Below, in pieces: positions 30,001 through 33,000 of a stretch of DNA of 42,074 bases. The number at the start of each line of letters is the position of its first letter. Within the stretch, counting starts at the first letter, position 1. The DNA is from a virus (Duplodnaviria; Heunggongvirae; Uroviricota; Caudoviricetes), in IMG/VR virus record IMGVR_UViG_2913182230_000001, positions 1-42,074 of that record; one strand, given 5' to 3'. Position numbers: made by a program.

Positions 30001-33000
30001 AAATAAAAAATTGTCGCTGGCGTATAACGCACAGAGCCAGTCTTCTGCCACATGGGGGAATAACGTTATCGTGATCCGCAACAAGGTCAGCGGCGACATC
30101 ATCACGGCACGCAGCGTTGCGTTCCAGAAACAACCGGATAACGCCAACGCTAAAACCGGTAATACGATGCCGTGGGTGTTTGACTGCGGCAAGATTGACC
30201 AGGTTCTCGGGGAGTTTTAATACATGGAATTCGAAATCAAAGGCGTGAAATATCGCGTGGCAAAACTCAGCGTTTTTGACCAGCTGAAAGTGACCCGCAA
30301 ACTTCTGCCGGTACTGGCGGGAATGATGTCAGATTTCGGGAGCATTCGCTCCCGTTTGCCTGCTGACGGCAAAATCGACACCGTGAAATTCGAGCAGTTA
30401 AAACCGGTGTTTGAAACCATGCTCCCGCGTATCGCTGAGGAATTGTCTTCCCTGACCGAAGATGACACCGATGCGATTATTCATCCCTGTCTTGCGGTGG
30501 TATCGCGGCGTCATATGGACGGATGGGTTCCGGTATTTACCCAGGGCGAACTGATGTTTGATGATATTGACTTGCTGGTCATGCTGCAGCTGGTGGCGCG
30601 GGTGGTCGCCGATTCGCTGGGAAATTTTTTGCCTACACCCCTTACCAGCACGACGCAGAGCCTGCAACAGGGCTGACGTTTAACAGCCTGCCGGACGGGC
30701 TGTCCTACCTTCTCAATCCGGTTGACGCCGGGTTAATTCCTTATACAGCACTTAAAGATGGCTCTGTCGATTTGTACGATATTGCTCTTTTGAATGACCA
30801 TCTGGCGGTAAAAGCGGATAACCAGCGGCGCATTGAGAAATGGAGAGAGGATAATGAACGCTGAAACTATTAAAGATTTCCTCGTCTCGCTTGGCTTCAG
30901 TGTGGATGATGCAGGAGCGAAAAAGTTCGGTTCTGTCCTCGCCGGTACAACTGCAAATGTCATCAAAATGGGGCTGGCCGTCGAAGGAACTGCGCTGTCC
31001 GTGGTGGCCTTCACGGCTAAGATCGCCTCCGGTCTGGATAATCTTTACTGGGCGTCACAGCGCACCGGCGCGACGGTCCAGGGAATTCAGTCTATTGGCT
31101 ATGCGGTTTCGCAGGTTGGCGGCAGTGTGGACGCTGCGCGATCTTCTCTGGAAAGCCTCTCCCGGTTTATTCGTAACAATCCCGGAGCAGAAGGCTTTCT
31201 GAATCGCCTGGGCGTACAGACCCGTGATGCCAGCGGTAACATGCGTGACATGGCTGCTATCTTTACGGGCGTTGGACAGAAACTCAGCAGCATGCCGTAT
31301 TACCGGGCTAACCAGTATGCGCAGATGCTGGGCATTGACGAAAATACCCTTATGGCGATGCGCCGGGGTGTGGGTGGCTTCTCCGGGCAGTACAGCGCAA
31401 TGGCGAAAGCTATCGGCTTCAATGCTGACGAGGCGGCCAGAAGCTCCAACAAATTTATGACCTCCCTGCGTGAGTTTAGCGCGATGGCAGGAATGGCCCG
31501 TGACAAAATCGGCTCTAATCTTGCGGGGGGACTTGCGGGTTCGCTGGACACCCTGCGCCGCCATATTCTGGACAACTTCCCGCGTATCGAGCAGACCCTG
31601 ACGAAAGCCATAAAAGGCATTCTGGCGCTCGGGGATATTATCGGGCGGCTGTTCTTCAGACTGATTGAGGGGACATCAGGCCTTATCACCTGGTGGCAAT
31701 CGCTGGATAAGCAAACGCGGGAGTTGATCTCGCTGTTTGGCGCACTGACGATTGCGCTGCGCATTCTGAACAGTACGTTCTGGATGTCGCCGATTGGCCT
31801 CATTACTGCGCTGGCGGCGGGGATTGCCCTTCTGTGGGAGGACTATCAGACCTGGAAGGAAGGCGGCGACAGCCTGATTGACTGGGGCAAGTGGAAACCG
31901 GAGGTTGATGCCGCGCTGAAGATGGTTCGTGACCTTAAAACGACCGTTAACGACCTGGTGAAAGCGCTGGCGAAACTGCTCAATATTGACCCCAAATCAT
32001 GGTCCCTGAAGTGGGATTTCAGCAACTTCATCGACCAGATGGGCGAATTCAGCAAAATGCTGAACATGATCGCCGACCTGCTCAACGCTATCAAAGATGG
32101 CCGCTGGGCTGATGCCGTCAGCATCGGCAAACAGATACTTAATCAGGGCAGCGAAAATCCGTCAGCGATGCCGATGGTTACAGACAGCGCTAACAGTACT
32201 GCCGACTGGATTAAAGAGCACTGGGGATTTGATCCCCGCAGAGTGGGCCGGACGGTACGCGGCTGGTTTGGTGATGATGAGCCGGAACAACATGCACAGG
32301 CTACGAAACGAGGAGAACGGAATAACAATCCGGGAAACCTTAATTTTGCTGGTCAGGCAGGGGCTTCTCTTGAACGCCCGGGCGGGCGATTTGCCAGATT
32401 TGAAACGGCCTTTGATGGATTACGGGCTCTTGCTCGTCAGTTAATGCTGTACGCCGGACGGGGAATAAACAGTGTGGAGAAAATTATCTCTACCTGGGCA
32501 CCTGCGTCTGATAATAACAACACAACTGCGTATATCAGGGCTGTATCGCAACGACTGGGAGTGGATCCCCGGGCTGCCCTGAATATGAGCGATCCGCAAA
32601 CCATGTCAGCATTGATGAGCAGCATTATCCAGCATGAGAATGGAAGAAATATCTATTCTCGAGAGCTGATTAATAAGGCTGCCGTGGCGGGAATTAGTGG
32701 CAAAGTGACAGAGGTTAACCAGCAAAATACCTACCACATTTACGGTGGCGGAGATCCGCACGCTGTCGGTAATGAGGTTGCACGTCGGCAACAGTCTGCA
32801 AATGCTCAGGTCATGCGAAGTAATCAGGTGAGGGTGGGTTAGTGGATATTCTCTCTACACTTTTTCATCAGCAGAGCAGAAAAATAGGAATGATTGTTCC
32901 CAGTGTTGTTATTTCAGAGAAGCATACAGATATGCTTGAAATAACAGAGCATCCGGTAGAGGTCGGGGCCGCTGTCGCTGATCATGCCTATAAAAAACCG

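What the first reader, a model, noticed from the sequence alone, without database searches (positions are those of the whole stretch)
30619..30864. Candidate programmed -1 ribosomal frameshift in the tail assembly chaperone
Near the 3' end of the chaperone gene the sequence G GGA AAT TTT TTG contains overlapping X XXY YYZ slippery heptamers (GGGAAAT, AAATTTT, TTTTTTG); the first resembles the lambda G/GT site GGGAAAG. The -1 frame is open from 30625 to a TGA at 30862-30864 and overlaps the tape measure start. It has no internal ATG, and its translation (...LPDGLSYLLNPVDAGLIPYTALKDGSVDLYD...) looks protein-like. This accounts for the apparent gap between 30676 and the tape measure gene.
Basis: partly seen in the sequence, partly recalled or inferred. 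Interest (0 to 1): 0.5.

Follow-up and report, generated by a model that had tools for sequence, protein, structure and literature searches.

The report
Tail chaperone -1 ribosomal frameshift site
An E. coli prophage makes a long form of its tail assembly chaperone by letting ribosomes slip back one base on a run of T's, the trick known from phages lambda and P2, so the finding is correct but ordinary.

Summary
The 150-aa tail assembly chaperone gene (30224-30676, Pfam Phage_TAC_15) carries G GGA AAT TTT TTG at 30619-31. This is three overlapping in-frame X_XXY_YYZ heptamers. The -1 frame is open from 30571 to the TGA at 30862-64, which lies inside the tape-measure start.

The -1 extension is a real domain (Pfam DUF6889, E 1e-20). 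In 115 of 120 non-redundant relatives it stays open for 78-84 codons. It is under purifying selection in the -1 frame (dN/dS 0.23-0.33) and has no conserved ATG/GTG/TTG start.

The predicted 213-aa fusion aligns colinearly, straight through the junction, with single-ORF TAC+DUF6889 proteins of GC-rich relatives (E 1e-21).

One refinement: the universally conserved element is the T run (T_TTT_TTG, the slip site reported for P2 E/E+E'), not the lambda-like GGGAAAT. GGGAAAT is lost in 9 loci and is blocked by a -1-frame stop in one.

No conserved downstream RNA structure was found. A G-rich Shine-Dalgarno-like element lies 18-26 nt upstream.

GenBank already annotates this frameshift in the homologous Klebsiella phage Mulock. 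RefSeq instead calls a 54-aa CTG-started 'DUF6889 family protein'. No experiment exists for this family. I rate it a new member of a known kind, of low interest.

The parts
28624..29769 (+). Tail sheath gene (context)
   Evidence: Pfam DUF3383 E 6e-101; phrog_205 tail sheath E 5e-135
29780..30220 (+). Tail tube gene (context; the presumed binding partner of the T-like domain)
   Evidence: Pfam KPP10_Orf10 E 9e-61; the same family is labelled Phage_Tube_PhiTE
30224..30676 (+). Short chaperone ORF (150 aa), the analogue of lambda gpG and P2 gpE. It is the product of standard decoding.
   Evidence: Pfam Phage_TAC_15 E 2e-31; phrog_1688 tail assembly chaperone E 2e-65. The sequence MLQLVARVVADSLGNF is invariant in relatives, and the 0-frame tail after it is variable.
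30599..30607 (+). G-rich Shine-Dalgarno-like element CGGGTGGTC, a possible upstream stimulator (hypothesis only)
   Evidence: Duplex with the 16S 3' end is -6.6 kcal/mol, in the top 0.8% of 9-mers in the gene. A comparable or stronger element is present in all 41 representatives. The Arg codon is CGG in 33 of 41. This is confounded by the conserved RVV peptide.
30619..30631 (+). Slippery cluster G GGA AAT TTT TTG, made of three overlapping in-frame heptamers
   Evidence: It is identical in Klebsiella phage Mulock, which is only 65% identical overall.
30622..30628 (+). A_AAT_TTT heptamer. By the E. coli rules it is the best of the three (cognate UUU to UUU re-pairing in the A site). The product junction would be ...GNF-FAYTP.
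   Evidence: Present in 37 of 41 representatives. Rules from Sharma et al. 2014, PMC4066793.
30625..30631 (+). T_TTT_TTG heptamer, the only one conserved in every relative and the slip site reported for P2. The product junction would be ...GNFL-AYTP.
   Evidence: All 142 loci have an in-frame T6 run; two carry the variants TTTTTTA and TTTTTTC. The preceding codon is always NNT, even where Asn changes to Gly, Ser or Asp. TTT is used in 41 of 41 and TTG in 39 of 41. In L136 a -1-frame TGA lies immediately upstream, so only this heptamer can work there. P2 reference: PMC3091744.
30625..30864 (+). -1-frame extension (79 codons plus TGA), the T-like C-terminal part of the 213-aa long isoform
   Evidence: Translation. 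It is 78-84 codons long in 115 of 120 non-redundant loci. dN/dS is 0.33 in the overlap and 0.23 in the unique part. Third-position entropy is highest in the -1 frame.
30739..30855 (+). DUF6889 core of the extension
   Evidence: Pfam PF21829 E 1.2e-20, residues 37-75 of the translation of 30631-30864; phrog_4364 E 2e-23
30700..30864 (+). The stand-alone 54-aa 'DUF6889 family protein' CDS as RefSeq draws it, starting at CTG 30700 (rival reading; probably an annotation artefact)
   Evidence: The CTG is present in only 66 of 115 sequences, and the position is Glu in most distant relatives.
30854..32842 (+). Tape measure protein gene. Its ATG lies 8 nt before the -1-frame stop.
   Evidence: phrog_2276 E 3e-282. 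The same 8-nt overlap is found in 91 of the non-redundant loci.

Best explanation
This is a programmed -1 ribosomal frameshift in the tail assembly chaperone gene of a contractile-tailed prophage integrated at thrW in E. coli.

Most ribosomes read 30224-30676 and release the 150-aa short chaperone. A minority slip back one base while decoding the U run of G GGA AAU UUU UUG (30619-31). They then continue in the -1 frame to the TGA at 30862-64 and make a 213-aa long isoform. The long isoform is the chaperone domain plus a 79-residue T-like domain (DUF6889).

The slip most likely uses A_AAU_UUU and/or U_UUU_UUG. The products differ only at residue 136 (Phe or Leu). No downstream RNA structure is needed.

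By analogy with lambda G/GT and P2 E/E+E' (inferred, not shown), both isoforms coat the tape measure protein, and the extra domain recruits the tube protein. The fixed low ratio of long to short form is what the frameshift sets.

Shown here: the anatomy, the conservation, the coding constraint in the -1 frame, the lack of a conserved start codon, and the single-ORF architecture in relatives. Inferred: that slippage actually occurs, its efficiency, and the role of the domain.
For: 1. Context. The gene order is sheath, tube, TAC, tape measure, Dit-like, plug, hub.

2. Heptamers. Three in-frame heptamers lie inside the 105-nt zone where a -1 shift can reach the extension.

3. The extension is a real domain. 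It hits Pfam DUF6889 at E 1e-20 and phrog_4364 at E 2e-23.

4. Conservation of the open frame. In 115 of 120 non-redundant relatives (down to 52% TAC identity) the -1 frame stays open for 78-84 codons. It ends 5-17 nt inside the tape-measure start in nearly all of them.

5. Coding constraint. Pooled dN/dS in the -1 frame is 0.33 in the overlap and 0.23 beyond it. Third-position entropy in the -1 frame is 1.10 against 0.78 and 0.64 in the overlap, and 1.39 against 0.75 and 0.63 beyond it. The -1 frame is therefore translated from the slip site onward.

6. Synonymous-site constraint at the slip site. TTT is used in 41 of 41, TTG in 39 of 41 and AAT in 37 of 41 representatives. The codon before the T run always ends in T, even when the amino acid changes. 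Flanking conserved Leu, Ser, Asp, Ala and Val codons vary freely.

7. No conserved start codon. No ATG, GTG or TTG is conserved ahead of the domain core.

8. Single-ORF relatives. Seven distant cluster representatives (191-210 aa) carry Phage_TAC_15 plus DUF6889 in one ORF. The predicted fusion aligns with P0166 over residues 6-203 at E 1e-21, with DSLGNFLAYTP opposite DSLARFLAYEP. The P0166 junction DNA (CGC TTC CTG GCC) has no slippery run.

9. Insertion variant. A variant with one extra T (T7) gives the in-frame 213-aa fusion.

10. Precedent. P2 shifts at TTTTTTG without a downstream structure (PMC3091744). The lambda G:GT ratio is about 30:1 (PMC5009743). A -1 frameshift at a conserved GTTTTT has been proposed from genome comparisons for the chaperone of Pakpunavirus (Vandenendeviridae) and Andersonviridae myoviruses (PMC12846349). 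I did not test whether those chaperones are homologous to this one. GenBank MN098327 annotates a 'tape measure chaperone frameshift product' at the homologous, motif-identical site.
Against: - There is no experimental evidence for this family: no mass spectrometry, reporter assay or ribosome profiling.
- No conserved downstream stem-loop or pseudoknot was found. The RNAalifold consensus energy is -1.1 kcal/mol with no covarying pairs, and the single-sequence fold has z = -0.28.
- By the systematic E. coli survey, UUG and AAU are 'heterogeneous', weaker A-site codons. U_UUU_UUG and G_GGA_AAU are therefore not in the most efficient class.
- Which heptamer is used cannot be decided from sequence.
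- RefSeq annotates the extension as an independent CDS in the listed complete E. coli genomes.
- AlphaFold2 gave no usable model (pLDDT 40), so nothing structural supports the tube-binding role.
Confidence: 0.88

Rival explanations
1. DUF6889 is an independent small protein of about 54 aa, started at the CTG at 30700 (or another non-canonical codon), as RefSeq annotates it. On this reading the heptamers are incidental.
For: RefSeq (annotated by NCBI's PGAP pipeline) calls a 54-aa 'DUF6889 family protein' (locus 1101-1265 of L146, which is window 30700-30864) in every listed record among the 337 complete E. coli genomes that match. Databases hold many 46-78-aa stand-alone DUF6889 entries, some named 'NTP pyrophosphohydrolase'.
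Against: - CTG at that column occurs in only 66 of 115 sequences, and most distant relatives have Glu there.
- No ATG, GTG or TTG is conserved before the domain core. The first widely shared ones (columns 54 and 60) lie inside it.
- The segment between the slip site and the supposed start (FFARTPRQRD...) is itself conserved and constrained in the -1 frame.
- Single-ORF relatives show the domain attached to a TAC domain.
- The stand-alone entries have ragged, inconsistent N-termini.
Confidence: 0.04
2. The long isoform is made by transcriptional slippage. RNA polymerase adds one extra U on the T6 run, giving an mRNA in which the two frames are joined. The product would be ...GNFFAYTP, as in the T7 variant.
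For: A one-base insertion in the T run does give the in-frame fusion (L145). The T run is the most conserved element. Database entries with T7 and apparently T5 runs show that this homopolymer is indel-prone.
Against: The run is only 6 T's in all 142 loci. As far as I know, transcriptional slippage usually needs longer runs (my own knowledge, not checked here). Sharma et al. link slippage to depletion of runs of seven A's or U's. The conserved frame phasing of the run (NNT TTT TTG) and the preference for G after it fit ribosomal tRNA re-pairing; polymerase slippage is frame-independent. P2 uses the same heptamer ribosomally.
Confidence: 0.05
3. The slip happens at the lambda-like G_GGA_AAT heptamer, rather than on the T run.
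For: It is correctly phased and resembles lambda G_GGA_AAG. GGA is kept in 37 of 41 representatives despite three synonymous alternatives. The SD-like element lies 12 nt upstream of its P-site codon, a distance I recall as similar to that in dnaX (own knowledge).
Against: GGGAAAT is absent in 9 of the diverse loci (L082, L096, L108, L112, L127, L135-L137, L141). In L136 a -1-frame TGA follows it, so it cannot serve there. AAU to AAA re-pairing by tRNA-Asn is non-cognate, and AAU is a 'heterogeneous', weak A-site codon in E. coli. The product would be identical to that of A_AAT_TTT, so the two cannot be told apart by mass.
Confidence: 0.1

Closest known systems
Phage P2 E / E+E' tail chaperone frameshift (Christie et al. 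2002 and Xu, Hendrix & Duda 2004, as cited in PMC3091744)
   Same: Both are contractile-tailed temperate phages of enterobacteria, and the gene sits just before the tape-measure gene. [quoted passage not shown] The two products share an N-terminus.
   Different: No Pfam or PHROG family tied to P2 E appeared among the matches; this chaperone is Phage_TAC_15 and the extension is DUF6889. I did not compare it with P2 E directly. The proteins are larger (150 and 213 aa, against 91 and 142). Two further overlapping heptamers lie upstream. The tail module is of the DUF3383-sheath / KPP10-tube type, not the P2 FI/FII type.
Phage lambda G / GT frameshift (Levin, Hendrix & Casjens 1993; Xu et al. 2004, 2013, 2014)
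   Same: Same logic: a short chaperone plus a rare -1 frameshift fusion whose extra domain is thought to bridge the tape measure and the tube protein. The ratio is about 30:1, and neither protein is in the virion (PMC5009743). The first heptamer here, GGGAAAT, differs from lambda's GGGAAAG by one base.
   Different: Lambda is a siphovirus. Its slip uses tRNA-Lys on AAG, whereas here the conserved core is a U run. GGGAAAT is dispensable in relatives. No sequence homology was detected.
Klebsiella phage Mulock CPT_Mulock_014/015 (GenBank MN098327)
   Same: It is a true homologue (58% TAC identity). It has the identical GGGAAATTTTTTG motif and a -1 extension ending in the tape-measure start. It is already annotated as 'tape measure chaperone frameshift product' with a joined CDS.
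   Different: The annotation is computational only, and the genome announcement does not mention it. The window's closest relatives (vB_EcoM-606R2, SEN34, YP3 and the RefSeq E. coli prophages) lack that annotation.
Pakpunavirus / Andersonviridae TAC-N / TAC-NC frameshift at GTTTTT (PMC12846349, 2025)
   Same: These are myoviruses in which a T-run -1 frameshift is proposed from conservation of the open -1 frame across many genomes. The downstream piece is routinely mis-annotated as a separate hypothetical gene. The window's tube protein belongs to the Pfam family named after phage KPP10, which I recall is a Pakpunavirus (own knowledge).
   Different: They are lytic Pseudomonas and enterobacterial phages. 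I did not test whether their chaperones are homologous to this one. Their motif is reported as GTTTTT rather than a full X_XXY_YYZ heptamer.
Long chaperone isoform encoded as its own in-frame ORF (found here in GC-rich metagenomic relatives; a non-frameshift mechanism is also proposed for T4-like phages, Vladimirov, Gautam & Davidson 2022)
   Same: The same two domains occur in the same order. A TAC+DUF6889 protein of 191-210 aa aligns end to end with the predicted fusion.
   Different: No frameshift is involved. The long form is an ordinary ORF. In three of the five lineages examined it follows a separate, divergent short TAC gene (L147/L148, L149 and L151). In two others (L150, L152) no adjacent short TAC gene was seen.

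Membership tests
Conserved tail-assembly-chaperone -1 programmed frameshift (lambda G/GT, P2 E/E+E' type; Xu, Hendrix & Duda 2004) | Gene pair lies between the major tail/tube gene and the tape measure gene | tested here: met
   Tube gene 29780-30220, TAC 30224-30676, tape measure gene 30854-32842
Conserved tail-assembly-chaperone -1 programmed frameshift (lambda G/GT, P2 E/E+E' type; Xu, Hendrix & Duda 2004) | Upstream ORF is a tail assembly chaperone | tested here: met
   Pfam Phage_TAC_15 E 2e-31; phrog_1688 E 2e-65
Conserved tail-assembly-chaperone -1 programmed frameshift (lambda G/GT, P2 E/E+E' type; Xu, Hendrix & Duda 2004) | Second ORF overlaps the 3' end of the first in the -1 frame and has no start codon of its own | tested here: met
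   The -1 frame is open 30571-30864 and has no ATG. No conserved ATG, GTG or TTG lies ahead of the domain core in 115 sequences.
Conserved tail-assembly-chaperone -1 programmed frameshift (lambda G/GT, P2 E/E+E' type; Xu, Hendrix & Duda 2004) | Correctly phased X_XXY_YYZ slippery heptamer inside the overlap | tested here: met
   Three are present; T_TTT_TTG is the slip site reported for P2
Conserved tail-assembly-chaperone -1 programmed frameshift (lambda G/GT, P2 E/E+E' type; Xu, Hendrix & Duda 2004) | Heptamer and open -1 frame are conserved in diverged relatives, and the extension evolves as coding sequence | tested here: met
   An in-frame T6 run is present in all 142 loci. The extension is intact in 115 of 120 non-redundant loci. 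dN/dS is 0.23-0.33. Synonymous variation is suppressed at the site.
Conserved tail-assembly-chaperone -1 programmed frameshift (lambda G/GT, P2 E/E+E' type; Xu, Hendrix & Duda 2004) | Fusion protein is made in vivo at a low fixed ratio, and both forms are required for tail assembly | not testable with these tools
   This needs mass spectrometry, a reporter assay or genetics. No paper on this family was found.
Stand-alone DUF6889 family protein (RefSeq/Pfam reading) | Match to the DUF6889 profile | tested here: met
   E 1.2e-20, 73 bits against a cut-off of 23.9
Stand-alone DUF6889 family protein (RefSeq/Pfam reading) | An independent, conserved translation start | tested here: not met
   The RefSeq start is CTG 30700. 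That codon is present in 66 of 115 sequences and is Glu in most distant relatives. No canonical start is conserved.
dnaX / IS911-type -1 frameshift signal with flanking stimulators | Downstream stem-loop or pseudoknot 5-9 nt after the heptamer | tested here: not met
   Consensus fold of 31 sequences gives -1.1 kcal/mol with no compensatory pairs. The single-sequence fold has z = -0.28.
dnaX / IS911-type -1 frameshift signal with flanking stimulators | Upstream internal Shine-Dalgarno-like sequence at a stimulatory distance | tested here: inconclusive
   An SD-like 9-mer (-5.4 to -9.3 kcal/mol, within the top 0-5% of each gene) lies 13-26 nt upstream of the T run in 40 of the 41 representatives, and 22-30 nt upstream in the other (L140). 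GGAGGA lies 12 nt upstream in the Erwinia clade. It overlaps the conserved RVV(A/G/E)D peptide, and in most clades the spacing is longer than I recall for dnaX.
Transcriptional slippage recoding | Long homopolymer run (as I recall, usually 8-9 or more A/T), with frame-independent action | tested here: not met
   The run is T6 in all loci and its codon phase is strictly conserved

The most novel reading that the evidence does not exclude
The site may be a composite, tunable signal rather than a bare heptamer. It would combine three overlapping heptamers with a conserved upstream G-rich anti-SD-pairing element, which becomes a perfect GGAGGA 12 nt upstream in the one clade that has lost the two A-containing heptamers. 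In addition, the Phage_TAC_15 family seems to have switched between making its long isoform by frameshifting (AT-richer enterobacterial prophages) and encoding it as an ordinary in-frame ORF (63-67% GC relatives). That would make it a natural system for asking why phages use recoding to fix the chaperone ratio.
Probability: 0.25. Interest if true: 0.35.

Novelty: new member of a known kind. Interest (0 to 1): 0.2.

Why it matters
The main value is for annotation. At least 337 of 5,426 complete E. coli genomes carry this locus. In the records I inspected, RefSeq draws the extension as an orphan 54-aa 'DUF6889 family protein' with a CTG start. Older entries call it 'NTP pyrophosphohydrolase'.

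The evidence here assigns DUF6889 a role as the T-like C-terminal domain of the Phage_TAC_15 chaperone. It also shows the correct gene model: a joined CDS with ribosomal slippage on the T run.

Biologically it adds one more tail lineage (DUF3383 sheath, KPP10-type tube) to the near-universal chaperone frameshift. It shows that the heptamer reported for P2 recurs in a chaperone with no detected family link to P2 E. None of this is surprising to a phage specialist.

Tried and rejected
- **Downstream RNA stimulator.** A single-sequence fold of 30632-30730 and an RNAalifold of 31 diverse sequences found nothing conserved.
- **Structure.** AlphaFold2 of the natural in-frame fusion P0001 with a 38-row alignment gave mean pLDDT 40 and pTM 0.25. 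No fold search was run because the matches would be meaningless.
- **Solved structures.** A sequence search of the PDB with the fusion gave only a chance hit at E 0.8.
- **Literature.** 'DUF6889' has 0 papers, and the phage Mulock genome announcement does not mention the frameshift. Sharma et al. 2014 does not give numeric values for these three heptamers in its text, only class rules.
- **Giant proteins.** Proteins of 392-3661 aa with 3-9 repeated weak matches to extension residues 2-56 appeared. The three I checked (P0157, P0168, P0162) are a PEGA-repeat protein and two with only sub-threshold Pfam matches. I rejected these as spurious.
- **Counting ORFs with a long -1 extension.** This is uninformative as a chance statistic, because 36 of 84 ORFs are simply followed by a gene in that frame.
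- **Other shift directions.** A +1 or -2 shift was rejected. The +1 frame closes at 30683 and carries no conserved domain.
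Full report
**What is there**

The window is an E. coli prophage integrated next to proA and tRNA-Thr(CGT). The flanking genes are an aldehyde-dehydrogenase-family ORF at 1-1254, the tRNA at 1369-1444 and an integrase at 1459-2622.

The late region has a contractile-tail module in this order:
- sheath (DUF3383, 28624-29769)
- tube (KPP10_Orf10, 29780-30220)
- a 150-aa ORF at 30224-30676 that matches Pfam Phage_TAC_15 (E 2e-31) and phrog_1688 'tail assembly chaperone' (E 2e-65)
- a 177-nt stretch with no canonical ORF
- the tape measure gene from ATG 30854
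- a Dit-like protein, a plug and a hub

**Check of the observation**

In the chaperone's frame the sequence reads CTG GGA AAT TTT TTG CCT. GGGAAAT (30619), AAATTTT (30622) and TTTTTTG (30625) are therefore all correctly phased X_XXY_YYZ heptamers.

The -1 frame is open from 30571, after a TGA at 30568-70, to the TGA at 30862-64. It has no ATG and overlaps the tape-measure ATG by 8 nt. A slip at any of the three sites gives a 213-aa product.

In this one sequence the statistics are only suggestive. About 0.12 in-frame heptamers are expected in the 34-codon permissive zone. TTTTTTG by itself is common in the window (17 found, 14.5 expected).

**Is the extension a real protein?**

Yes. The -1 translation matches Pfam DUF6889 (E 1.2e-20) and phrog_4364 (E 2e-23).

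I collected 80 close loci from viral contigs, 60 diverse loci from bacterial genomes (TAC identity 52-86%) and four annotated phages.
- Of 120 non-redundant sequences, 115 keep a -1 extension of 78-84 codons. In nearly all of them it ends 5-17 nt inside the tape-measure start. Three others are cut by contig ends, and two (L033, L109) have premature stops.
- The extension aligns as a conserved peptide: FFA.TP.Q.D...LP.G...L..PV.AG.I.Y.ALKDGSVDL.DIA..ND.L..KADN..RI.KWR..NER.
- Pooled Nei-Gojobori dN/dS in the -1 frame is 0.33 in the part that overlaps the chaperone's 0-frame tail and 0.23 in the unique part.
- In 37 representatives below 92% nucleotide identity, the most variable codon position is the -1 frame's third position, both in the overlap (1.10 against 0.78 and 0.64) and beyond it (1.39 against 0.75 and 0.63).
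- By contrast, the chaperone's 0-frame tail after ...SLGNF is the only poorly conserved part of that protein.

Translation in the -1 frame therefore begins at the slip site, not further downstream.

**Which heptamer?**

An in-frame T6 run is present in all 142 loci. It reads T_TTT_TTG in all but two, which have TTTTTTA and TTTTTTC.

GGGAAAT is missing in nine diverse loci. AAATTTT is missing in four, the Erwinia/Kalamiella clade L127 and L135-137, where Asn is replaced by Gly, Ser or Asp.

In L136 the -1 frame has a TGA immediately before the T run (GGT GAT TTT TTG). Only a slip on the T run can work there.

At the nucleotide level:
- The codon before the run always ends in T, even when its amino acid changes.
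- Phe is TTT in 41 of 41 representatives.
- The following Leu is TTG in 39 of 41, whereas other conserved Leu columns are mostly CTG.
- Neighbouring invariant Leu, Ser, Asp and Val codons vary freely.

The literature reports that phage P2 makes E and E+E' by a -1 shift at exactly TTTTTTG, with no downstream structure (PMC3091744).

The systematic E. coli survey of Sharma et al. found that 'homogeneous' A-site codons (UUU/UUC, AAA/AAG) shift best. It also found that R_RR.U_UU.Y motifs remain shift-prone (PMC4066793). That favours A_AAU_UUU in this window and disfavours G_GGA_AAU.

I conclude that the slip occurs on the U run, through A_AAU_UUU and/or U_UUU_UUG. The alternative products differ only at residue 136 (Phe or Leu).

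**Stimulators**

No conserved downstream hairpin or pseudoknot was found. This matches P2.

Upstream, every representative has an anti-SD-complementary G-rich 9-mer among the strongest 0-5% in its gene. It starts 26 nt before the T run in most (CGGGTGGTC in the window, 30599-30607, -6.6 kcal/mol). It is GTGGAGGAT, the strongest in the gene, ending 13 nt before the run in the clade that lost the A-containing heptamers. The Arg codon there is CGG in 33 of 41 representatives.

This is suggestive of a dnaX-like stimulator. It is confounded by the invariant RVV peptide and by phylogenetic non-independence, so I list it only as a hypothesis.

**Independent support from relatives that do not frameshift**

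An exhaustive search with the 77-aa extension found many short stand-alone fragments. It also found seven cluster representatives of 191-210 aa with the match at their C-terminus. All seven also match Phage_TAC_15 in their N-terminal 120 residues, five of them above the Pfam cut-off.

The predicted window fusion aligns with P0166 over residues 6-203 (33% identity, E 1e-21), straight through the junction. VVADSLGNFLAYTPYQ lies opposite VARDSLARFLAYEPIE. All eight sequences align colinearly.

The junction DNA in L147 is CGC TTC CTG GCC, with no slippery run, in 67% GC DNA. These are therefore genuine single ORFs.

In three of the five lineages examined (L147/L148, L149 and L151), the long gene directly follows a separate, divergent short TAC gene. 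This is a two-gene solution to the same problem. Two other lineages (L150, L152) show the long form without an adjacent short gene.

Closer to home, a Logan assembly with one extra T (T7) yields the in-frame 213-aa fusion P0001.

**Rivals**

RefSeq annotates the extension as a 54-aa 'DUF6889 family protein' starting at CTG 30700. It did so in every record listed among the 337 complete E. coli genomes that carry the locus. That codon is not conserved, no canonical start precedes the domain, and the region upstream of it is constrained in the -1 frame. I give this reading about 4%.

Transcriptional slippage on T6 would give the same protein. However, the run is short and its codon phase is strictly conserved. 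I give it about 5%.

**What is known already**

The mechanism is the classic conserved tail-chaperone frameshift of lambda G/GT and P2 E/E+E'. The lambda ratio is about 30:1, with the G part binding the tape measure and the T part binding the tube protein (PMC5009743).

The homologous gene of Klebsiella phage Mulock, which has the identical 13-nt motif, is already annotated in GenBank as 'tape measure chaperone frameshift product'. The genome announcement does not discuss it.

A 2025 paper argues, from the same kind of comparative evidence, for a T-run -1 frameshift in the chaperone of Pakpunavirus and Andersonviridae myoviruses (PMC12846349).

The closest relatives of this window (vB_EcoM-606R2, SEN34, YP3) leave the gap unannotated.

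**Verdict**

The finding is real and correctly interpreted. It is a new, computationally very well supported member of a well-known kind.

What remains inferred: that slippage happens, its efficiency, which heptamer is used, and the tube-binding role of DUF6889. AlphaFold2 gave no usable model (pLDDT 40) and no solved homologue exists.

Interest is low (0.2). The practical value is a corrected gene model and a functional assignment for DUF6889.

Noticed in passing
window 33417-33423 (end of the Dit-like gene 32842-33429): A correctly phased G_GGG_GGC heptamer lies two codons before the stop. The next gene (Pam3_gp18-like plug, ATG 33429) is in the -1 frame, so a slip would fuse the two proteins. 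This is probably chance, because G-run heptamers shift poorly in E. coli. Conservation in relatives was not checked.
   Followed up: no
L145 1893-1909 (Logan SRR23924998); proteins P0001 and P0066: The T run varies in length in database entries. A T7 version gives an in-frame 213-aa chaperone-DUF6889 fusion (P0001, 16 member sequences). P0066 (...GNFCPNSLPARRR...) looks like a T5 version that reads into the +1 frame; its DNA was not inspected. These may be real homopolymer indels or sequencing errors.
   Followed up: partly
L147 1989-3130, L148 577-1718, L149 108-1238, L151 231-1285: In GC-rich metagenomic relatives, the long chaperone isoform (TAC+DUF6889, 191-209 aa) is an ordinary ORF placed directly after a separate, divergent short Phage_TAC_15 gene. 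This is a two-gene alternative to frameshifting within the same Pfam family. In L150 and L152 only the long form is adjacent.
   Followed up: partly
window 30599-30607; L127, L135, L136 and L137, about 13-21 nt upstream of their T runs: A G-rich anti-Shine-Dalgarno-complementary element is conserved upstream of the slip site. It becomes a perfect GGAGGA, 12 nt from the heptamer, exactly in the clade that lost the two A-containing heptamers. It may be a dnaX-like stimulator, but it is confounded by the conserved RVV(A/G/E)D peptide.
   Followed up: partly
L096 (Chryseobacterium sp. 18061, 799-kb contig), L142 (Bacillus sp. AFS073361, 395-bp contig), phage hit H21 (Elizabethkingia phage EKP1): Records labelled as Bacteroidota or Bacillus carry an enterobacterial-type copy of this locus (protein identity 70% in L096 and 78% in L142; 68% nucleotide identity in H21), with the T6 run and AAATTTT intact in L096. 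This suggests contamination or mislabelling rather than cross-phylum phage transfer.
   Followed up: no
L033 1602-1710, L109 1575-1692, L092 1201-1344: A few relatives have a premature stop in the -1 extension (L033 and L109, apparently one-base indels) or a truncated chaperone (L092, Apirhabdus). These are decaying prophages or assembly errors.
   Followed up: no
window 1-2622: The prophage sits next to a 417-aa aldehyde-dehydrogenase-family gene (ProA-like) and tRNA-Thr(CGT) at 1369-1444, with a tyrosine integrase at 1459-2622 on the minus strand. This looks like the thrW integration site.
   Followed up: partly
database entries P0122, P0124, P0125, P0127 and others: Many stand-alone DUF6889 fragments are named 'NTP pyrophosphohydrolase' in NCBI records. 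Nothing seen here supports that name, and it appears to be a propagated misannotation.
   Followed up: no
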